Shown one piece after another: positions 54,021 to 64,000 of a stretch of DNA of 64,000 nt. Position 1 is the stretch's first letter, and the number at the start of each line of letters is the position of its first letter. The stretch is from an endosymbiont of Galathealinum brachiosum (lineage in GTDB: Bacteria; Pseudomonadota; Gammaproteobacteria; SZUA-229). The notes beneath the pieces are model-generated. The model was not told the origin of the DNA. It ran no database searches and saw only the letters and a list, made by a program, of their open reading frames with translations. The stretch covers positions 3,850 to 67,849 of the forward strand of contig QFXC01000002.1 of the NCBI GenBank assembly GCA_003349885.1, written 5' to 3'. The position numbers and the translations under genes were made by a program.

Positions 54021-54818
54021 TTATACATCTACAACTAAACTTACATCAAACCCAACTACATTCTCACCCGGATACCCCGCCTGATTTGAAAGAATCCGTG
54101 TATCACTAATAACCCTGTCTAAATTTGCATGAGTATGCCCGTAAATCCACAGGTTAATATCAAACATTTCAATCAACGAGCTTAAGTCTGAGTGAAAAGC
54201 CGCAGTCAACTCATCTACCGGAAATGCCGGATGCTGACAAACAGGATGAGGCCCATGATGAGTAACAATAACGGTTTTACCCTTAAACGGCTCAGACAGT
54301 TTTTGCTTCAACCAGTTTAATTCGATATTGTGTTGTGTGAGTGCATGGTGAGGTTTAAATTTTAGATAACGTCCATCTGAATTGAAACGTATTTTTCGAT
54401 GATCGGCCAACACATTTTCTATACTCAGCATTACCCGCTCTTTTGGTATAGCCGTGAATGCTTTGTAATCTGTCCATAACGTAGCACCCAGAAACCGAAC
54501 ATCATCTACAATGCATTCACCATAATCTAAACATGAGACCTGTGTACCTTCACAAAGCTTTTGTATTTTATCTTTCAGGTGATTAAACTCATGCCCATAA
54601 TATTCATGGTTACCTGATACATAAATAATTTTTTTAGATAACCGCTCAGCTTCAGAAATAGCCCACTCTACCCCATGAACACCTGTATCAATATCACCCG
54701 CCAATACAATAATATCTGTATCGGTTTCTGGTAAACGACCAGACCATTTATGCAAAGGGTCAAACTTACCACTTCTTAAAAACTCATTATGTAAATCACT
54801 GAGAATATGTATTTTCAT
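54021..54818 (-). CDS. calcineurin-like metallophosphoesterase
   Basis: MKIHILSDLHNEF, GDIDTGVHG, GNHEYYG, GHTH motifs. Confidence 0.7.
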   Translation of the reverse strand: MKIHILSDLHNEFLRSGKFDPLHKWSGRLPETDTDIIVLAGDIDTGVHGVEWAISEAERLSKKIIYVSGNHEYYGHEFNHLKDKIQKLCEGTQVSCLDYGECIVDDVRFLGATLWTDYKAFTAIPKERVMLSIENVLADHRKIRFNSDGRYLKFKPHHALTQHNIELNWLKQKLSEPFKGKTVIVTHHGPHPVCQHPAFPVDELTAAFHSDLSSLIEMFDINLWIYGHTHANLDRVISDTRILSNQAGYPGENVVGFDVSLVVDV

Positions 54819-54953: not shown

Positions 54954-55385
54954 CTACTTATTAATAAATAACTGATTGATTTCATCAGATTTAAGAATAG
55001 CCGCTAATTTATACGCTTGCCCTGTTTCCTGAATCAATACTTCAGCAGGTATACCTAAGCCTTGATGTAACTTACGAATCATACTTAAACTTAATGGTCG
55101 TTTTCCATTAAGCACTTCTGATACTTTTGATGCAGAACCAAAATATTTAAGCATATCTTTTTGCTGCAACCCCTGCTGCTCCATACGAAATTTAATAGCT
55201 TCAAGAGGCACAGGTTTATCGACAGGAAACTGTTCACGCTCATAGTGTTCAATTAGCACTGACAACACTTCCAGCTCATTCTCTTCATTAGAACCAGATG
55301 CAGGATTCAAATGCATTAATGCCATCAATCGTTCAACAGCCAATTTATGCTCAGCTTTAGACTTAATTACTTTTAGAATAGACAT
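54954..55385 (-). CDS. higA: HigA antitoxin (E. coli YgjM type, C-terminal HTH)
   Basis: GSASKVSEVLNGKRPLSLSMIRKLHQGLGIPAEVLI parallels E. coli HigA GSKSMVSRVLSGKRKLTLEHAKKLATRFGISPALFI. Confidence 0.8.
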   Translation of the reverse strand: MSILKVIKSKAEHKLAVERLMALMHLNPASGSNEENELEVLSVLIEHYEREQFPVDKPVPLEAIKFRMEQQGLQQKDMLKYFGSASKVSEVLNGKRPLSLSMIRKLHQGLGIPAEVLIQETGQAYKLAAILKSDEINQLFINK

Positions 55386-55396
55386 TAACCATCTCC

Positions 55397-55681
55397 TTAA
55401 AACTTTTGCTTATCATACTCAGCATGCGTACCAACCCATTCAATAACGACGATTCCATTCTGATACCTCACTTTCACTACAAGGCGATAGTGATTACCTT
55501 TAATATTAAAAATTACCCGGTTATCTGCCAGAAAATCAGCGGAGTTATACCTGTTTTTAATATCCTGCGGTGTAACCCATTGAGCTCTGTTCGCCTCATC
55601 AAACCATGCGTCTAATGCGCCTTTGCCGTGATTATGCTTTTTTGAGAACTTATCAAGTATGTCACGTCCTATGACTCTCAT
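55397..55681 (-). CDS. higB: HigB toxin (RelE/ParE superfamily, E. coli YgjN type)
   Basis: NRVIFNIKGNHYRLVVKVRYQNGIVVIEWVGTHAEYD parallels E. coli HigB HYVFNVGGNELRVVAMVFFESQKCYIREVMTHKEYD; toxin-first order. Confidence 0.8.
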   Translation of the reverse strand: MRVIGRDILDKFSKKHNHGKGALDAWFDEANRAQWVTPQDIKNRYNSADFLADNRVIFNIKGNHYRLVVKVRYQNGIVVIEWVGTHAEYDKQKF

Positions 55682-57711: not shown

Positions 57712-57996
57712 TTAAGTTATATTATGACTTGAAGGCAATGAGACTTGATAACGAGAGCCAACTTTGAAATATTCAATACGCCCTTCATTAACTAACTTTT
57801 CCATCATTACCGACATCAACCAGCCTTTCTGACCATCTTCTGTAGGACTATAAGACAGCAAATCAAGACCAAGATCTTTTTTTAGAACAGCGGCTTTAAC
57901 TGAAGCTTGACCATCATTAGATTGCAATCTAATATAATCTATAATTACGTCACCAATAGAATTAAGATGATTTTCTATATTTTTCTTATGATTCAC
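57712..57996 (-). CDS. small hypothetical protein downstream of the 3-gene cassette
   Basis: ORF only; 188 bp downstream of the REC gene on the same strand. Confidence 0.3.
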   Translation of the reverse strand: MNHKKNIENHLNSIGDVIIDYIRLQSNDGQASVKAAVLKKDLGLDLLSYSPTEDGQKGWLMSVMMEKLVNEGRIEYFKVGSRYQVSLPSSHNIT

Positions 57997-58184
57997 TCAA
58001 CACCTTCCAATCCTCTTCATTCGATTTATACCATCCATTTATTACTTGCTATTTATAGAACAATGCTCAACACATCCTATTATTAGGAATAATTTCGTAC
58101 TGACAATTGATAATGGCATATTGAAATTTAAAACCATAATAATTTTCATTCTGAACTGCCTGATAAATTGTATTCTAATTAGAT

Positions 58185-59090
58185 TTAGTTTATAAACTTT
58201 TTAAAATCCGACTGAATTTTTAATAGCTGCATTCGAAGTCGCTTAAACTCATCAAAATTATATTCTTTTTCATCACCACCATGTGAATGCAGAATCAATT
58301 TACCTTCATCTGTTAGCTTAGCATGTTGATGTGCCAATTTATTCCTTTCTGATTGTGTTTTACATAAATTGGAACCTTCAGACAAAAACTCGTGCTGAGC
58401 CGATCCTTCTTCAAAGAGCTTTTTGAAGGCAACACGAATAACTTGAAATTCAGTCAAAAAAGGATCCTTAATTGCATCTTCTACACATGTTATTTTTTCA
58501 ACTTTTACGGATTGATTAAAAACTTTATCTTTTAATTTCTCCTTTATATATTCTAGGAGCTCAGACCGCTTAATAGGATCGAGTGCTGTACATGCCTTGT
58601 TAAAGGAATCTCTCATTTTTACATCTGTGTGACTCATAGATGACATAACCACACCACGGATATTATTAATATCTGATATTTTTTTTATATGATCTTCAAT
58701 TAAAGCCTCAACTTGATCATTAAATATTTCTCTATCAATAATAAAGACTCCATCAACCTTAGAATCATAAAGTTTTTTTCTAAGGACATTTTGCTTGGTT
58801 CCACTATAGAATATTAAGTCAGTGTAAATCTGTCTACGCAACTCCTTCGCTATAGTAAGCCCATCCTCACTATCACCGCCCAGATCATAGTCAAATATAA
58901 TTAAATCATAAGGATTATAATTAGATAATGTTGATGCAAGCTTTCGAATATCATCATAACTAATTTTTGTTTCTTTTTCTATTTCAGGAATAAACCCGTG
59001 AGAGGAGACAAAATCCTCAACATTAGAAACTGATTCTTTAACGTTTTCAAACTGATCTTCAAACCATAATATTTTATATGTTAATTTCAT
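58185..59090 (-). CDS. receiver (REC) domain protein with unrecognised ~180-aa C-terminal domain (cassette gene C)
   Basis: KILWFEDQ (acidic pair E11/D12), DLIIFDYDLGGD (candidate phospho-Asp D66/D68), IFYSGTK (S/T + K); overlaps upstream gene by 4 nt. Confidence 0.6.
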   Translation of the reverse strand: MKLTYKILWFEDQFENVKESVSNVEDFVSSHGFIPEIEKETKISYDDIRKLASTLSNYNPYDLIIFDYDLGGDSEDGLTIAKELRRQIYTDLIFYSGTKQNVLRKKLYDSKVDGVFIIDREIFNDQVEALIEDHIKKISDINNIRGVVMSSMSHTDVKMRDSFNKACTALDPIKRSELLEYIKEKLKDKVFNQSVKVEKITCVEDAIKDPFLTEFQVIRVAFKKLFEEGSAQHEFLSEGSNLCKTQSERNKLAHQHAKLTDEGKLILHSHGGDEKEYNFDEFKRLRMQLLKIQSDFKKFIN

Positions 59091-61462
59091 AATTTTTTTA
59101 CATTTATAGTTAACCCTAACCCTCTATCAGGTTGATTATCTGATAGAGATATTTCACCACCCATTTTTTCTAACTGTTTTCTTATATGATATAAACCCAA
59201 ACCAGAGCCTCTTGTGGTCGTATATCCTTTTTCAAATATTCTCTGTGGTTCGATTACTTTACTATCTAAACCGTTACCATTGTCAACCACTTCAATATTT
59301 AACACATTATTTAAAGCAGAAGAAATAATAAAATCAACCCTTGAAGCACGTGCTTTATTCGAATTATTCACAATATTATCAAGAATAACACCCAATTCTA
59401 TTGGTGTGAAATTTGTAACAAATCCTTTTGTATTATTAATAACATTTATATTAATACCATGGTGATATGATGTAGTTATTTTATCTAGATATTGTTCAAT
59501 ATGTTGACATATATCAGCATGTACTTTTTCTGAATCTAACTTATAGTTAGCTAAAGTAGCGAACCTAGAGGTGGTGATTATTTTTTCAATTAACACCAAT
59601 AGCTCATCAAGAATATCTCTAACTGTATCACTAGAAATTTCTTCAGTTTTATTTAAAGAGAAATACTTCCTAAAGGCATTTTTTAGTTTTTGTCTATTTT
59701 CAACAGCGTAAATGATAATTTGGTGCATAAAGCTCTCAAGCTGATCTTTATCACGTGATTCACTGGATGTTAAATATAAACTCCTCTTTTTCTCGTCTTC
59801 GTAAGCCGTGCTAATTTTTTCTTTTTCAGTCTCAGCAGCAACCCTTCCTTGGCGTTCAGAACTCTCTCTGTGTTCAGCCTTTATTCGCGCTTCAATTTCT
59901 TGCTCTGCTATCTTTAAAGCGTCATCTTTTTCTTTCTCTAATTTCTCATACTCTCTGCGTGCAGATGAAACAGCTTTTTTTAAATTCACATCATTTGAGT
60001 CTTTAGCAAGTGACTCTAAATTATTAATTGATTTTTCAAAATATACTGATTTTTCATTTAATACTGAAACTATATCTTTATTATATTCAAGAAGATCGAG
60101 GTTATCAGACTTTGAAAGACTTTCAATCAATTTGATGATTTTCGTTCTATTTTCATCAAGTCCAAGTCGCTCAGCAGTCTCATGTATTTTATCTAACTTA
60201 TCTTTCCAATTCACGCCCACCACATAGCTTTCGAAACGTCTAAGGCATTTATTTTTAACACACTCCTGCAATTGATCTGACGCGATAGTTTCTACCAAAC
60301 CTTTATCTCGACTAGAAGATTCTTTAAATTTGAATTCTTCTCCAGCAATATCAACTCGACCCAGTATATCTCGTGTACCTAGATAACGACTGTATCCTTG
60401 TTGTTTTCGAACATCGATTTTCCAATAATCATTACCTGGCTCACCAACAGGAAATACTCTAAAGCCATTACGAAACAAAAACAAAGAACCAAAACTAACT
60501 ACAGACAAAGCCATTTGTTTTTTAAATGTTAATTTTGCAGAATTATTCAAATAAAACAACTGACAATTAAAACCGCTATCTAACAATTCATCGTATTCAG
60601 GTATTTTTTCTCTAATTTTATATATCAACGTACCACGATCAATCAGATCACTGTAAAGCCAACCATCAGACTTAAGATAAACATGCAACCATGTAGTTTT
60701 TTCCCTTAAAGTTTCAAGAATGTAGTTTTTAACAATTCCATTTACTAATTCTGCCTGTCTATTTTTATTACCCAACTTCTTTTTTTCTTTTAAATCACCA
60801 CTTTCTTCCAAACTACTATGCAAGAAAACATCTAAGCTGTTGCCATCTTCACCAAATGGATTAATTAACTTAGTAAGATGTCTTTTAAGTGATAATAATT
60901 TTTTTCTGTCCCATGATTTTTTTTCTCTTAAATTTGAAATCTCTACTACTACACCACTACTAATAGCGTCAACTTCTTTAGGAAAATCAAAGTCTTCAGA
61001 TTCATTATGAAAAACAGCGATATCGCCAAATAACTCAGTAGAATCTTTTTCAAAACTCCCCCAGTCGACATCTAAAATATCAACATGATCCATACCCTTA
61101 GTTTTTGCCTGAATCCTAAGCTCACCACCTAATCTATCACATGAAAAACGACCTACTCCCTTGTTTCCAGCATATGTTCTATTTTTATCTTGATCCTCTG
61201 TCCCATCTCTTTTTGCTGAATAAGCTACAAAAAGCCATTTATTAGTAAAATCATCAAAATCCATTCCTTTACCATTATCAATCACATAAATTTTTTCGAC
61301 ATCTCTTCCATCGTATTTAAATACTATATCCACACGGCTAGCATTTGCATCAAATGAATTCTTTACCAACTCAAATATTGCAACGTAGTCATTAGTAATA
61401 AGATCACGTCCAATAACTGATTTTAAAGAAGAACTTACTTTAAAATTCAATAACTCTGTCAA
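59087..61462 (-). CDS. dual GHKL protein: N-terminal MORC-like HATPase_c_3 + coiled-coil + C-terminal histidine-kinase-type HATPase_c (cassette gene B)
   Basis: N-term: IFELVKNSFDANA (N-box), VIDNGKGMD (G1), SAKRDG..GNKGVGRFS (G2/G3); C-term: ILDNIVNNSNKA (N-box), VVDNGNGLD (G1), GSGLGLYHIRK (G2); central E/K/R-rich coiled coil with candidate His in LESFMHQIIIYAVEN. Confidence 0.7.
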   Translation of the reverse strand: MTELLNFKVSSSLKSVIGRDLITNDYVAIFELVKNSFDANASRVDIVFKYDGRDVEKIYVIDNGKGMDFDDFTNKWLFVAYSAKRDGTEDQDKNRTYAGNKGVGRFSCDRLGGELRIQAKTKGMDHVDILDVDWGSFEKDSTELFGDIAVFHNESEDFDFPKEVDAISSGVVVEISNLREKKSWDRKKLLSLKRHLTKLINPFGEDGNSLDVFLHSSLEESGDLKEKKKLGNKNRQAELVNGIVKNYILETLREKTTWLHVYLKSDGWLYSDLIDRGTLIYKIREKIPEYDELLDSGFNCQLFYLNNSAKLTFKKQMALSVVSFGSLFLFRNGFRVFPVGEPGNDYWKIDVRKQQGYSRYLGTRDILGRVDIAGEEFKFKESSSRDKGLVETIASDQLQECVKNKCLRRFESYVVGVNWKDKLDKIHETAERLGLDENRTKIIKLIESLSKSDNLDLLEYNKDIVSVLNEKSVYFEKSINNLESLAKDSNDVNLKKAVSSARREYEKLEKEKDDALKIAEQEIEARIKAEHRESSERQGRVAAETEKEKISTAYEDEKKRSLYLTSSESRDKDQLESFMHQIIIYAVENRQKLKNAFRKYFSLNKTEEISSDTVRDILDELLVLIEKIITTSRFATLANYKLDSEKVHADICQHIEQYLDKITTSYHHGININVINNTKGFVTNFTPIELGVILDNIVNNSNKARASRVDFIISSALNNVLNIEVVDNGNGLDSKVIEPQRIFEKGYTTTRGSGLGLYHIRKQLEKMGGEISLSDNQPDRGLGLTINVKKL

Positions 61463-61498
61463 CTTATATACTCCTTAGGTTTCTGTTTGGATTTTTCA

Positions 61499-63967
61499 TC
61501 ATTTAGTATTGTCTTTTTTAATAACTTCGAAAAATGGATTAGCACGTATAACTTGTCCATCCACACCAAGCGTCTTATACAAACACTCATGACATTCCAA
61601 AGATTTAATCGAATCAACAACATCTGAATTAACAGCCGTCAACCCTATACCTTCAAGCTCTTTTATCGTTACATTTGGTACTTTATGTACAAACCAGGTT
61701 AGAAGTGGCTCCAAATAATTCTCATGCGAAGTCTTAAAATGAGATAAGTACTGTGAAGCAAGCAATACTCCAACCCCAAACTCTCTACCCTGCAACAAAA
61801 TCTTTTTCAAAACATCAAATTCATATTGCATGATGTTATCAGCTTCATCAACAAGCAACATAGTATCAACAAATCTCAATTTAGGATCTTCACCAATAAA
61901 TGGCTTTTTCTCAATTCTAAGCATATGCTCATAAAACAAGTTCAAAAATATAACAACGAGCATATTCTTTGTTCTATCATCTTGCCCTATTTCTGATAAA
62001 TCGATGACTACTACACCTGTAAGAAACTCTGAAAATGGAATAACATCCTTACTATCTGATACAAAGTAACCACCATCTACTAGATCATCCATAATATTGT
62101 ATGGTGTATCTGGTGACTTAATTGCTTCTTTATAACAATCAAAAACGTCATTAATTGTTGGTGCTATTTTTCCATTAGCATTTGTTATTTCGTACGACTC
62201 TTTAACTGCAGCCTTTATGCGTGAACGCTGAACAGGCCCTATACCTGGATAAATTTTATCTAATACATCTATGAAGAATTTTGTTCTCTCAAGCCATGCC
62301 CTGCCTTTTTGAGAGCTATCTCGAATATCAAACAAATTTAACGGTATATCAAAAGGTGAAACTACTTTTGCACCTGTTGCTTTAACAAAGTCATCTTTTG
62401 AATAGTCTCGCTTGTAGTCAAATATTAATATATTTGGCCTTTTACCCCTATTCATATCAGGTTTAGCACCCATTTGTTGAACAAGCGCTTGGATTAACTG
62501 TGTTTTGCCTGTTCCTAAATCACCTACAATACCGACATTAAGCTGATTTAACGCTGTATTACCAGGAAAAAAGAACAATTCTTCATTAGTAAACTTATTT
62601 ACTGTTTCACCAACACTAAATTTAATACCTTCTGGTGATGGATCACTAGTAATTATTTCATCTTTATCTGTTTCTTTTGCCTTTTCAACTTCTGCTTCTA
62701 CTTTGGCTACAGAATCATCTACTAAGATTTCTTTTTCCGTGGGTTCACCCGTTTCTACTTCGGGCAATACTGTTGTCTCTACTTTTGTTTCTACATCAGG
62801 TGATATTTCTGGATTTGTTTTTGGTTCAGTCTTTGGCTTTATATCTAATGTATCTTTCGAGTCTAGCTCAGGTAATAGCTGCCAATTACCCATCTTAGAG
62901 TTTATAGATTTAGAAAAAGCACTATCACATCTAGCTAACACTGAAAAAGCTTCAGCATGTGTTAGATGCATGGTTTCATTAAAACCATCTTTATCTATAT
63001 CTTGTAGCGATTCATTCTCTGAGCTATCTATGACAATAAGCCTTCCTCGTGTATCTATATCTATATCCAATTCATTATTTGCAATTGATTTTAATATAGA
63101 TGAATGCTGCTGCGCCCATTCTTTCTGATTCATGAACTGTTCGAGCTGACCGTATACTCTAAAACCATAATCTAGCATGGTTGCTAGAAGATTACGCCAT
63201 GCGATACCCCACAAATCAAATTCTTTTGCTTTTGTTTGTATATCATGAAGAAATTCTGAAAAATGACTAGCCTGACACAAAGCTGCCTCTCGCTCATTAG
63301 GTGACATGGTGCCACCTCTTGCTTTAACTTCTACAGGCGTTATACGCATTTGAATTGGCTCACCTGAAACAAACTGCATACTCAAAACTAAAAGATCTGG
63401 ACGCTCACCATATTTAAAGCCTATAGCTGTGCGTAAATCATCGAAGTGTTTCTGGAATGGATCAGCAGAGATAATCAGGTTTAATGTATCATCATCCTTA
63501 ACTGGTAATAACCCTGTTGCTGTAGCACCCCGCTCAAAGTCAGATTGAAAAATACGAAGCGCAGTTAACATTCCAATTTCTCCAAGTGACATTGAGCCAC
63601 CTGCAGTTAAACGCTTTAGTGTTGGCATACCCCTACGTGATATTTCTTCTAATATTTCAGAAATTCTTTCATCAGTTAATTCACTATTCTCACCTAATAA
63701 TATAAGAGCTGATCTAACAGCTTGCAGCATTCCAGGTGATTCTTTTGCCAGTAGGTAATAACCACTATTCTCACCTGCACGACGCGCATATGATGGTAAC
63801 TCATAATCCCAAAGATAAGCCTTTTCTGTGGAACCAAAAAAACAGGCTGCATCAACATCTGTTGATGACAATGCTGTATAACGTGAACCGCCAACAACAT
63901 CTGCTAACTTAGCCATATCAGGTGCAAAAACATAACTGTCAAAATCTTCTTTACATTGACGCTCCAC
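61499..63967 (-). CDS. PD-(D/E)xK-like nuclease domain + low-complexity linker + HerA/FtsK-like P-loop ATPase (cassette gene A); N-terminus probably beyond window edge
   Basis: RPDLLVLS...ITPVEVKARGG (PD..E.K); linker KPKTEPKTNPEISPDVETKVETTVLPEVETGEPTEKE; Walker A GIVGDLGTGKTQL, HerA-like ILIFDYKRDY, Walker B MLLVDEADN; called start is GTG and frame stays open to position 64000. Confidence 0.65.
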   Translation of the reverse strand: MERQCKEDFDSYVFAPDMAKLADVVGGSRYTALSSTDVDAACFFGSTEKAYLWDYELPSYARRAGENSGYYLLAKESPGMLQAVRSALILLGENSELTDERISEILEEISRRGMPTLKRLTAGGSMSLGEIGMLTALRIFQSDFERGATATGLLPVKDDDTLNLIISADPFQKHFDDLRTAIGFKYGERPDLLVLSMQFVSGEPIQMRITPVEVKARGGTMSPNEREAALCQASHFSEFLHDIQTKAKEFDLWGIAWRNLLATMLDYGFRVYGQLEQFMNQKEWAQQHSSILKSIANNELDIDIDTRGRLIVIDSSENESLQDIDKDGFNETMHLTHAEAFSVLARCDSAFSKSINSKMGNWQLLPELDSKDTLDIKPKTEPKTNPEISPDVETKVETTVLPEVETGEPTEKEILVDDSVAKVEAEVEKAKETDKDEIITSDPSPEGIKFSVGETVNKFTNEELFFFPGNTALNQLNVGIVGDLGTGKTQLIQALVQQMGAKPDMNRGKRPNILIFDYKRDYSKDDFVKATGAKVVSPFDIPLNLFDIRDSSQKGRAWLERTKFFIDVLDKIYPGIGPVQRSRIKAAVKESYEITNANGKIAPTINDVFDCYKEAIKSPDTPYNIMDDLVDGGYFVSDSKDVIPFSEFLTGVVVIDLSEIGQDDRTKNMLVVIFLNLFYEHMLRIEKKPFIGEDPKLRFVDTMLLVDEADNIMQYEFDVLKKILLQGREFGVGVLLASQYLSHFKTSHENYLEPLLTWFVHKVPNVTIKELEGIGLTAVNSDVVDSIKSLECHECLYKTLGVDGQVIRANPFFEVIKKDNTK

Positions 63968-64000
63968 TTCATCAACACAACTTAATAATTTGCCTGTTAT

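What the first reader, a model, noticed from the sequence alone, without database searches (positions are those of the whole stretch)
58185..59090. Gene C: REC domain fused to an unrecognised C-terminal domain, translationally coupled to gene B
The stop codon of gene B overlaps the start of gene C (59087..59090). Residues 1-~120 fit a CheY-like receiver: the acidic pair E11/D12, FDYDL with D66/D68, S96/T98 and K99/K105. Residues ~125-301 (REIFNDQVEALIEDHIKKISDINNIRGVVMSSMSHTDV...LILHSHGGDEKEYNFDEFKRLRMQLLKIQSDFKKFIN) contain no HTH, GGDEF, EAL, HD-GYP, PNP or nuclease motif that I recognise. An output domain of unknown function is the natural candidate for the toxic or effector activity of the cassette.
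Basis: seen in the sequence. Interest (0 to 1): 0.7.

Follow-up and report, generated by a model that had tools for sequence, protein, structure and literature searches.

The report
Receiver domain fused to HEPN RNase
Gene C is a two-component response regulator whose "unknown" C-terminal half is a divergent HEPN-type (predicted RNase) domain. With its partner kinase it forms the effector arm of a widespread, apparently undescribed restriction-modification-like defence cassette.

Summary

The C-terminal domain is not motif-free. It carries R249-N-K-L-A-H254, the HEPN RNase signature, and this R and H are the only invariant columns across 92 diverse relatives. Divergent relatives hit Pfam HEPN families, best HEPN_RiboL-PSP at E 2.7e-6, just under Pfam's cut-off. 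Fold searches found no HEPN structure, so the assignment rests on sequence.

Gene B fuses a MutL/restriction-enzyme-type GHKL ATPase to a histidine kinase with an invariant His580. A B homologue sits immediately upstream of the C homologue in 61 of 61 related loci from many phyla. A C5 DNA methyltransferase accompanies the pair in 55 of 61.

Most likely mechanism (inferred): B senses DNA status, phosphorylates D67, and switches on the RNase.

This window has no methyltransferase. A DndH-like gene, truncated by the window end, sits in that position.

I found no description in PADLOC, Pfam or the searchable literature. Verdict: new variant of a known kind, interest about 0.6.

The parts
58185..59090 (-). 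Gene C CDS, 301 aa: receiver-HEPN response regulator
   Evidence: ORF list and sequence. Homologues.
58731..59090 (-). CheY-like receiver (REC) domain, residues 1-120
   Evidence: AF2 model with beta-alpha x5 layout. Foldseek PDB hits to receivers. Response_reg hits in 76/92 relatives.
58890..58892 (-). Codon of D67, predicted phospho-acceptor aspartate
   Evidence: Invariant in 57/57 relatives. Codon GAC read directly from the sequence.
58668..58730 (-). Long helix (residues 121-141) continuing alpha5 of the receiver into the effector domain
   Evidence: AF2 secondary structure shows helix 120-141. pLDDT dips to about 62 at residues 141-150, a possible hinge.
58188..58667 (-). Divergent HEPN-like domain, residues 142-301
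   Evidence: HEPN-clan Pfam hits of relatives. Helix order agrees with the published HEPN description in PMC3710099.
58653..58658 (-). R145-G146, invariant pair at the start of the first effector helix
   Evidence: Invariant in 57/57 relatives.
58329..58346 (-). R249-N-K-L-A-H254, the HEPN Rx4H motif (predicted RNase active site)
   Evidence: R and H are the only invariant columns in 92 diverse relatives. R, A and H are 57/57 and N is 55/57. The motif sits at the C-terminal end of helix 241-254.
58233..58235 (-). Codon of R286 in the last helix, nearly invariant
   Evidence: Present in 56/57 relatives.
59087..59090 (-). ATGA overlap between the gene B stop and the gene C start
   Evidence: Read from the sequence. 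The same 4-nt overlap occurs in 33 of 57 related loci and a 1-nt overlap in 8.
59087..61462 (-). Gene B, 791 aa: N-terminal GHKL ATPase (HATPase_c_3) + middle region + coiled coil + histidine kinase (HATPase_c)
   Evidence: Pfam and NCBIfam hits. Conserved motifs. No membrane segment. A homologue lies immediately upstream of the C homologue in 61/61 loci.
59723..59725 (-). Codon of H580 of gene B (ESFMHQIII), predicted phospho-histidine
   Evidence: Conserved in 57/57 homologues; the only conserved histidine.
61499..64000 (-). Gene A: C-terminal part of a DndH-like FtsK/HerA-type ATPase. The reading frame is open to the window end. A neighbour, not part of the conserved core.
   Evidence: PADLOC DndH E 4e-80, model positions 1108-1714. 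No stop codon before base 64000. A homologue lies near only 1 of 61 related cassettes.

Best explanation
Gene C encodes a cytoplasmic response regulator made of a phosphorylatable CheY-like receiver (acidic pair E11/D12, acceptor D67, S96) joined by a long helix to a divergent HEPN-superfamily domain. The invariant R249-N-x-x-A-H254 motif of that domain is the predicted active site of a metal-independent endoribonuclease.

Gene C is translationally coupled to gene B. Gene B is a soluble hybrid of a MutL/MORC/restriction-enzyme-type GHKL ATPase and a histidine kinase with phospho-acceptor H580.

Proposed path: the N-terminal part of B detects a DNA state. In most relatives this is presumably the absence of the C5 methylation laid down by the adjacent methyltransferase. 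B then autophosphorylates on H580 and transfers the phosphate to D67 of C. Phospho-receiver dimerisation brings two HEPN domains together and switches on RNA cleavage, which arrests the infected cell or the invader.

Shown here: the domain identities, the invariant residues, the strict B-C adjacency and start/stop overlap, the methyltransferase linkage in relatives, and its absence in this window.

Inferred: RNase activity, the direction and trigger of signalling, activation by dimerisation, and a defence role.
For: Receiver:
- AF2 model at pLDDT 88.7 and Foldseek PDB receiver hits.
- D12, D67 and S96 conserved in 57 relatives.
- Response_reg hits 76/92 relatives.

HEPN:
- R and H of RNxxAH are the only invariant columns in 92 diverse sequences.
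- Every one of 57 genome-derived homologues keeps Rx4H.
- In a scan of 28 diverse C-terminal domains, six of the eight Pfam families hit by more than one member are HEPN-clan. HEPN_RiboL-PSP hits 6 members, best E 2.7e-6 at 27.8 bits against a cut-off of 28.4, spanning profile positions 33-188 of 191 between them. Swt1, MAE_28990 and Cthe2314 hit 3 each; Abi_2 and Apea hit 2 each.
- The motif lies at the end of a helix that is followed by a loop/beta insert and a last helix. PMC3710099 describes this placement for HEPN helix 3.

Kinase partner:
- H580 and both sets of ATP-binding motifs are conserved in 57 homologues.
- A B homologue is immediately upstream in 61/61 loci, with ATGA overlap in 33/57.
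- No membrane segment in B or C.

Defence context:
- A C5 methyltransferase accompanies the pair in 55/61 loci.
- The N-terminus of B resembles BbrUII/HgiDII restriction enzymes.
- Related cassettes are flanked by integrases or Tn3.
- In the window the B-C pair has 31% GC, against 36-42% for the 11 kb downstream.
- Precedent for two-component defence: Detocs (bioRxiv 10.1101/2023.01.24.525353).
Against: - The window protein itself gives no HEPN Pfam hit. The best relatives fall just below Pfam's gathering score.
- PDB sequence profile searches found nothing.
- The receiver has Arg rather than the canonical Lys at the beta5 position.
- This window lacks the methyltransferase that defines the usual context, so the trigger in this genome is unknown.
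- No experiment exists for any family member in the literature I could search.
Confidence: 0.6

Rival explanations
1. The C-terminal domain is HEPN-like but non-catalytic. It would act as a ligand- or RNA-binding or protein-interaction module, so gene C would be an adaptor or regulator (for example of B or of the methyltransferase) rather than a nuclease.
For: Some HEPN families are non-catalytic (PMC3710099). No structural match places the motif in a verified active-site geometry.
Against: Non-catalytic HEPN families typically lose Rx4H. Here R and H are the only invariant positions in 92 sequences, and the polar N follows R in 55/57.
Confidence: 0.12
2. In this genome the B-C pair is not methylation-linked. 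Either it has been re-wired to the adjacent DndH-like (phosphorothioate-type) system, or it is an orphan remnant that has lost its methyltransferase and is on the way to decay.
For: There is no C5 methyltransferase anywhere in the 64-kb window. The DndH-like gene A ends 36 bp upstream of B on the same strand. One related locus (L057) also has a DndH-like gene close to the cassette. One other locus (L010) lacks an adjacent methyltransferase.
Against: B and C are intact with every conserved catalytic residue. The closest relatives all carry the methyltransferase. Gene A adjacency occurs in only 1 of 61 related loci, which fits ordinary defence-island clustering. A methyltransferase could lie beyond the window end.
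Confidence: 0.15
3. The pair is a housekeeping or stress RNA-processing switch, a regulated RNase with a PNKP-type end-healing partner, rather than an anti-invader system.
For: A HAD_PNKP phosphatase gene follows C in 8 of 61 genome loci and in other fetched contigs.
Against: The pair is tightly linked to a C5 DNA methyltransferase. B has a restriction-enzyme-like N-terminus. The distribution across phyla is patchy and related cassettes are flanked by integrases or transposons. The same cassette occurs on 5 IMG/VR viral contigs.
Confidence: 0.08
4. The C-terminal domain is a divergent DNA-binding output and gene C is an ordinary transcription regulator.
For: None beyond the fact that most response regulators bind DNA.
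Against: No HTH or wHTH family is hit in the C-terminal domain by any of 158 scanned relatives. The invariant residues form a nuclease-type motif, not a recognition helix.
Confidence: 0.03

Closest known systems
Detocs (DtcA/DtcB/DtcC), the defensive two-component system
   Same: A histidine kinase plus a response regulator whose usual DNA-binding output is replaced by a cell-arresting enzyme. In Detocs, defence needs the kinase His and the receiver Asp (bioRxiv 10.1101/2023.01.24.525353).
   Different: - The Detocs effector is mostly a PNP-type ATP nucleosidase. The paper lists other effector domains (endonuclease, transmembrane) but the term HEPN does not occur in its text.
- Detocs has a third gene, DtcB, a stand-alone receiver. 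No such gene is called in the related loci whose genes were listed, and the 94-aa ORF downstream of gene C in the window gives no receiver hit.
- Gene B carries a GHKL ATPase sensor and the cassette is linked to a C5 methyltransferase.
- PADLOC gives no hit for gene C.
PrrC/EcoprrI and RloC, HEPN anticodon nucleases coupled to restriction-modification systems
   Same: A latent HEPN RNase is tied to a DNA restriction-modification module. The HEPN assignment of PrrC and RloC comes from PMC3710099. The rest of this comparison is from my own knowledge.
   Different: From my own knowledge, PrrC is held in check by physical association with the type I enzyme and is regulated through an ABC-ATPase-like N-domain. 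Here control would be by His-to-Asp phosphotransfer to a fused receiver.
CARF-HEPN RNases of type III CRISPR (Csm6/Csx1) and the kinase-coupled KEN RNases (RNase L, Ire1)
   Same: An N-terminal alpha/beta sensor or regulatory domain is fused to a HEPN RNase. From general knowledge, these enzymes are activated by ligand- or phosphorylation-driven dimerisation. A beta insert right after Rx4H, as in the gene C model, is described for Csx1 (PMC3710099).
   Different: The regulatory input here would be aspartyl phosphorylation of a receiver, not a cyclic oligoadenylate or 2-5A. No sequence or fold match to these proteins was obtained.
Pfam HEPN_RiboL-PSP (PF18735), the nearest HEPN family
   Same: Divergent relatives of gene C align over nearly the whole profile (positions 33-188 of 191 between them) at E 2.7e-6 to 1.6e-4.
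   Different: All scores are below the gathering cut-off and the window protein itself does not hit. No receiver-HEPN fusion is mentioned in the HEPN survey PMC3710099.
BbrUII/HgiDII-family type II restriction enzymes with their C5 methyltransferases
   Same: Residues 17-197 of gene B match the N-terminal GHKL module of this family (NCBIfam NF050001, E 5.8e-19). Relatives sit next to a Dcm-type methyltransferase.
   Different: Only the GHKL module is shared (68 bits against a family cut-off of 550). The rest of B is a histidine kinase rather than a DNA nuclease.

Membership tests
CheY-like receiver / response regulator | (beta-alpha)5 Rossmann-like fold | tested here: met
   AF2 DSSP gives E4-10, H14-30, E34-40, H45-57, E63-67, H77-87, E91-96, H100-109, E115-119, H120-. 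Foldseek PDB receivers at probability 1.00.
CheY-like receiver / response regulator | Acidic pair after beta1 and phospho-acceptor Asp after beta3 | tested here: met
   Position 11 is E or D, D12 is 57/57 and D67 is 57/57.
CheY-like receiver / response regulator | Ser/Thr after beta4 and Lys after beta5 | tested here: inconclusive
   S96 is conserved (56 S, 1 T). The beta5 position holds R120 (R 41, K 4, other 12 of 57), an Arg in place of the canonical Lys.
CheY-like receiver / response regulator | Cognate histidine kinase with a conserved phospho-His | tested here: met
   A gene B homologue is immediately upstream in 61/61 loci. H580 is 57/57 and the kinase N, G1, F and G2 boxes are conserved. 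Phosphotransfer itself was not tested.
HEPN superfamily | Rx4-6H motif with a polar residue after R | tested here: met
   R249-N-K-L-A-H254. R and H are invariant in 92 and in 57 sequences; N is 55/57.
HEPN superfamily | Motif at the C-terminal end of helix 3, followed by a loop into helix 4; insert between helices 2 and 3 | tested here: met
   Model helices are 144-168, 172-198, short helices 203-236, 241-254 (carrying the motif), a beta meander 256-277, then 279-300. This agrees with the description in PMC3710099.
HEPN superfamily | Significant profile or fold match to an established HEPN family or structure | tested here: inconclusive
HEPN superfamily | Metal-independent endoribonuclease activity leaving 2',3'-cyclic phosphate ends | not testable with these tools
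   Needs biochemistry.
Detocs | DtcB, a stand-alone buffer receiver, in the operon | tested here: not met
   No third receiver gene is called in the related loci whose genes were listed. In the window the only ORF just downstream of gene C is a 94-aa ORF with no receiver hit.
Detocs | Sequence membership of DtcA/DtcC families | tested here: inconclusive
   PADLOC-DB v2.0.0 gives no hit for gene C, and only REase_II and MzaB N-terminal hits for gene B. I did not verify that this PADLOC release contains Detocs models.
BbrUII/HgiDII-type restriction-modification system | Full-length match to the restriction enzyme family | tested here: not met
   NF050001 scores 68 bits against a cut-off of 550, over residues 17-197 only.
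BbrUII/HgiDII-type restriction-modification system | Adjacent C5 DNA methyltransferase | tested here: not met
   Present in 55/61 relatives but absent from this whole window.
DndFGH (applies to gene A only) | DndH-type large ATPase | tested here: inconclusive
   The C-terminal half matches PADLOC DndH at E 4e-80. The gene runs off the window end, so its N-terminal half and any dndF/dndG partners cannot be seen.

The most novel reading that the evidence does not exclude
B-C may be the read-out arm of a previously undescribed immune system that is widespread in bacteria and reaches at least one archaeal MAG. The C-terminal profile finds over 1000 clusters at 50% identity. In this reading, DNA-methylation status is sensed by a GHKL ATPase-histidine kinase and relayed by His-to-Asp phosphotransfer to a HEPN RNase. 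That would make it a restriction-modification system that answers with RNA cleavage instead of DNA cleavage. The window, where a DndH-like gene occupies the methyltransferase position, would then show that this phosphorelay-RNase module can be attached to a different DNA-modification system.
Probability: 0.35. Interest if true: 0.8.

Novelty: new variant of a known kind. Interest (0 to 1): 0.6.

Why it matters
If the model holds, it would add a second, mechanistically distinct family of two-component immune systems after Detocs. As far as I could find, it would also add the first response regulator with a HEPN RNase output.

It would link epigenetic self-marking (C5 methylation) to an RNA-targeting abortive response through a phosphorelay.

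The system is compact (three genes), soluble and present in culturable Vibrio, Photobacterium, Marinomonas, Paenibacillus and Sphingobium. That makes it directly testable. A phosphorylation-switched RNase could also be useful as a tool.

Tried and rejected
- **Fold search, full-length model vs PDB.** Dominated by the receiver and uninformative for the output domain.
- **afdb50 library.** Not installed.
- **PDB sequence profile searches with A2 and A3.** Only chance hits.
- **Word-indexed profile search with the C-terminal alignment at E <= 10.** Did not reach beyond the receiver-fused family, so no bridge sequences to annotated HEPN families were found.
- **Exact-sequence look-ups of the window's gene C and gene B.** Not on record, so the DNA upstream of gene A could not be recovered.
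- **Plasmid and phage collections.** No match.
- **Promoter/terminator scan.** Promoter-like sites were little above the shuffle expectation and the single terminator-like site was at expectation; neither marks the operon ends.
- **Literature searches for receiver + HEPN, Detocs + HEPN, and GHKL + kinase + methyltransferase.** No description found. The DefensePredictor figure legend that mentions HATPase and REC does not describe this cassette in the text.
- **DNA-binding output.** Rejected: no HTH hit in the C-terminal domain.
- **Gene A as a core component.** Rejected: a homologue lies near only 1 of 61 related loci.

Full report
**1. The observation**

The minus strand carries an ATG-started ORF of 301 codons at 58185..59090. 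Its ATG overlaps the TGA of the upstream 791-codon ORF (gene B, 59087..61462) in the sequence ATGA.

The ORF is a real gene. A word-indexed search found 67 homologous clusters, with E 1e-93 at 54% identity for the nearest non-self hit. The identical protein is annotated as hypothetical in a MAG of the endosymbiont of Galathealinum brachiosum. A profile of the C-terminal domain alone finds 1019 clusters at 50% identity in 1.84 billion representatives, 549 of them at E <= 1e-10. The 150 listed hits are mostly about 300 aa, with the match in their C-terminal ~180 residues.

**2. The receiver**

An AlphaFold2 model built on 38 sequences has mean pLDDT 88.7 and shows a five-fold beta-alpha layout in residues 4-119. 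Foldseek against PDB returns receiver domains (PorX, PmrA, ArcA, KdpE) at probability 1.00. The window protein itself gives only a weak Pfam hit, cREC_REC at E 0.002. However, 76 of 92 diverse relatives hit Response_reg, best E 4.8e-12.

In 57 genome-derived homologues W9, D12, D67, Y95 and S96 are invariant or nearly so.

The motif is F66-D67-Y68-D69, so the acceptor is D67. T98, K99 and K105 are not conserved. The residue at the CheY Lys109 position is R120, which is Arg in 41 and Lys in 4 of 57.

**3. The C-terminal domain**

- In 57 homologues from many phyla R, A and H are 57/57 and N is 55/57, together with R145-G146 (57/57) and R286 (56/57).
- In a separate alignment of 92 diverse full-length relatives, the only invariant columns of the whole protein are this R and this H.
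- R-polar-x3-H is the signature of HEPN RNases. According to the HEPN survey it sits at the end of helix 3, before the loop to helix 4, with frequent inserts between helices 2 and 3 (PMC3710099).
- The models place the motif at the C-terminal end of helix 241-254. It is preceded by two long helices (144-168, 172-198) and three short ones, and followed by a small beta meander and a last helix, 279-300.

Pfam scans of individual relatives support the assignment. Among 28 diverse C-terminal domains, six of the eight families hit by more than one member are HEPN-clan:

| Family | Members hit (of 28) | Best E-value |
|---|---|---|
| HEPN_RiboL-PSP | 6 | 2.7e-6 |
| HEPN_Swt1 | 3 | 0.0021 |
| HEPN_MAE_28990 | 3 | 0.0071 |
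| HEPN_Cthe2314 | 3 | 0.018 |
| Abi_2 | 2 | 0.11 |
| HEPN_Apea | 2 | 0.29 |

Three members align to HEPN_RiboL-PSP over most of its profile, positions 33-188 of 191 between them, at 22-27.8 bits against a cut-off of 28.4. The closer relatives also give Abi_2, Swt1 and RiboL-PSP hits. In all, 158 sequences were scanned (38, 28, 92). Allowing for that number, a hit at E 2.7e-6 is still unexpected by chance.

I therefore call the domain a divergent HEPN, nearest to the RiboL-PSP family, with about 85% confidence. The call rests on sequence, not on fold search.

**4. The partner and the conserved cassette**

Gene B combines an N-terminal HATPase_c_3 module (E 1.3e-21) with a C-terminal HATPase_c kinase module (E 7.1e-20). 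The N-terminal module resembles MutL and the N-terminus of BbrUII/HgiDII restriction enzymes (NCBIfam E 5.8e-19, residues 17-197 only).

In 57 homologues both sets of ATP-binding motifs are conserved. One histidine, H580 in ESFMHQIII, is 100% conserved and no other histidine is. Neither B nor C has a membrane segment.

A scan of one genome per species returned 58 loci. They span Gamma-, Alpha- and Betaproteobacteria, Desulfobacterota, Campylobacterota, Verrucomicrobiota and Lentisphaerota, Planctomycetota, Bacteroidota, Bacillota and Patescibacteria, plus one MAG labelled Methanosarcinales archaeon. Together with three loci fetched by exact look-up, this gives 61 loci:

- 61 of 61 have a B homologue immediately upstream of the C homologue.
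- 55 of 61 have a Dcm-type C5 DNA methyltransferase. In 50 it lies directly upstream of B and in 5 it is convergent just downstream. Five of the other six have B running into a contig end.
- 8 have a HAD_PNKP phosphatase gene downstream.
- 5 have an Mrr-like gene.

The B-stop/C-start overlap is 4 nt in 33 of 57 loci and 1 nt in 8. All 57 full-length C homologues keep the Rx4H motif, so the effector is fixed rather than swappable. Related cassettes are flanked by integrases or Tn3, and the same cassette occurs on five IMG/VR viral contigs.

**5. This window is the exception**

No C5 methyltransferase is detectable anywhere in the 64 kb. The gene upstream of B, gene A, matches the C-terminal half of DndH (PADLOC E 4e-80, model positions 1108-1714). 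Its reading frame is open to base 64000, so it is a larger gene cut by the window.

Only one related locus (L057) has a gene A homologue. There it forms the C-terminal part of a DndH-like ORF of at least 1790 aa that begins about 4 kb downstream of an otherwise ordinary methyltransferase-B-C cassette. Gene A is therefore best seen as a defence-island neighbour, not a core part.

B and C have 31% GC, against 36-42% for the 11 kb downstream. A HigB/HigA pair lies 2.5 kb downstream.

**6. Mechanism**

Shown: a phosphorylatable receiver fused to a HEPN-type domain, a strictly adjacent and translationally coupled soluble kinase with an invariant His, and linkage to a DNA methyltransferase in relatives.

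Inferred from established knowledge of two-component systems and HEPN RNases:
- B's GHKL and middle region monitors DNA, presumably unmethylated target sites.
- It autophosphorylates on H580 and passes the phosphate to D67.
- Receiver dimerisation pairs two HEPN domains into an active RNase.
- RNA cleavage arrests the cell or the invader.

The invariant R145-G146 sits at the low-confidence hinge between the receiver's extended alpha5 helix and the first effector helix. It may transmit the signal or complete the active site.

The occasional HAD_PNKP partner fits RNA-end healing after HEPN cleavage, or dephosphorylation of the regulator. This is untested.

**7. Comparison with what is known**

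- In logic the nearest system is Detocs, where kinase His and receiver Asp are needed for defence and the output is an ATP nucleosidase. This cassette lacks DtcB, has a different sensor and a different effector, and is methyltransferase-linked.
- The coupling of a HEPN RNase to a restriction-modification module recalls PrrC/EcoprrI. A sensor domain fused to HEPN recalls Csm6/Csx1 and RNase L.
- PADLOC has no model hitting gene C.
- The HEPN survey mentions no receiver-HEPN fusion.
- Seven of my eight literature searches were aimed at finding this cassette; none found a description.
- That library is incomplete, so 'undescribed' is provisional.

**8. Verdict**

Gene C is a receiver-HEPN response regulator, and it belongs to a widespread, uncharacterised cassette of methyltransferase, GHKL-kinase and receiver-HEPN genes.

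I class it as a new variant of a known kind (defensive two-component systems, HEPN abortive effectors). Interest is about 0.6.

Noticed in passing
window 61499..64000 (-): Gene A is not a complete 822-aa gene. Its frame has no stop before the window end, and it matches only the C-terminal half of DndH models. It is therefore probably a DndH-like protein of about 1700 aa truncated by the window.
   Followed up: partly
L001 10900-11355; L002, L007, L009, L014, L020, L062, L066: A 151-aa HAD_PNKP (polynucleotide kinase-phosphatase-type) gene directly follows the receiver-HEPN gene in a subset of cassettes. It could heal RNA ends left by the RNase or reset the phospho-receiver. It is absent from the window.
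   Followed up: partly
L001 6137-11490 compared with L014 1874-7173: The cassette is a mosaic. The methyltransferase plus the first ~140 codons of B (the GHKL module) are 84% identical in DNA between a Photobacterium and a Balneola MAG locus, and HAD_PNKP is 92% identical. The rest of B and all of C are only 41-48% identical in protein. The kinase and receiver-HEPN parts seem to have been exchanged as a unit.
   Followed up: partly
window 54954..55681 (-): A HigB toxin (Pfam E 7e-31) and an HTH_3 antitoxin-like gene lie 2.5 kb downstream of gene C. A calcineurin-like metallophosphoesterase lies at 54021..54818.
   Followed up: partly
window 57712..57996 (-): A 94-aa ORF lies 188 bp downstream of gene C. 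It has only faint winged-helix or excisionase-like hits (E > 0.1) and no counterpart in the 61 related loci.
   Followed up: partly
window 58000..62000: Genes B and C have 31-33% GC, against 36-42% for the 11 kb downstream. This suggests recent horizontal acquisition.
   Followed up: no
L002/L006 11377-12105; L014 7068-7793: An Mrr_cat (modification-dependent restriction) gene follows HAD_PNKP in the Vibrio and Balneola cassettes.
   Followed up: no
L066-L070 (IMG/VR contigs): Five contigs classed as viral carry the methyltransferase-B-C cassette. L066 has HAD_PNKP as well, and L069 is cut within B. They are possibly prophage-borne.
   Followed up: partly
L010 4257-5848: One related B-C pair (Desulfococcaceae HSG8) lacks an adjacent C5 methyltransferase. 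It sits just downstream of a ParA/ParB pair, which makes it a second methyltransferase-less instance.
   Followed up: partly
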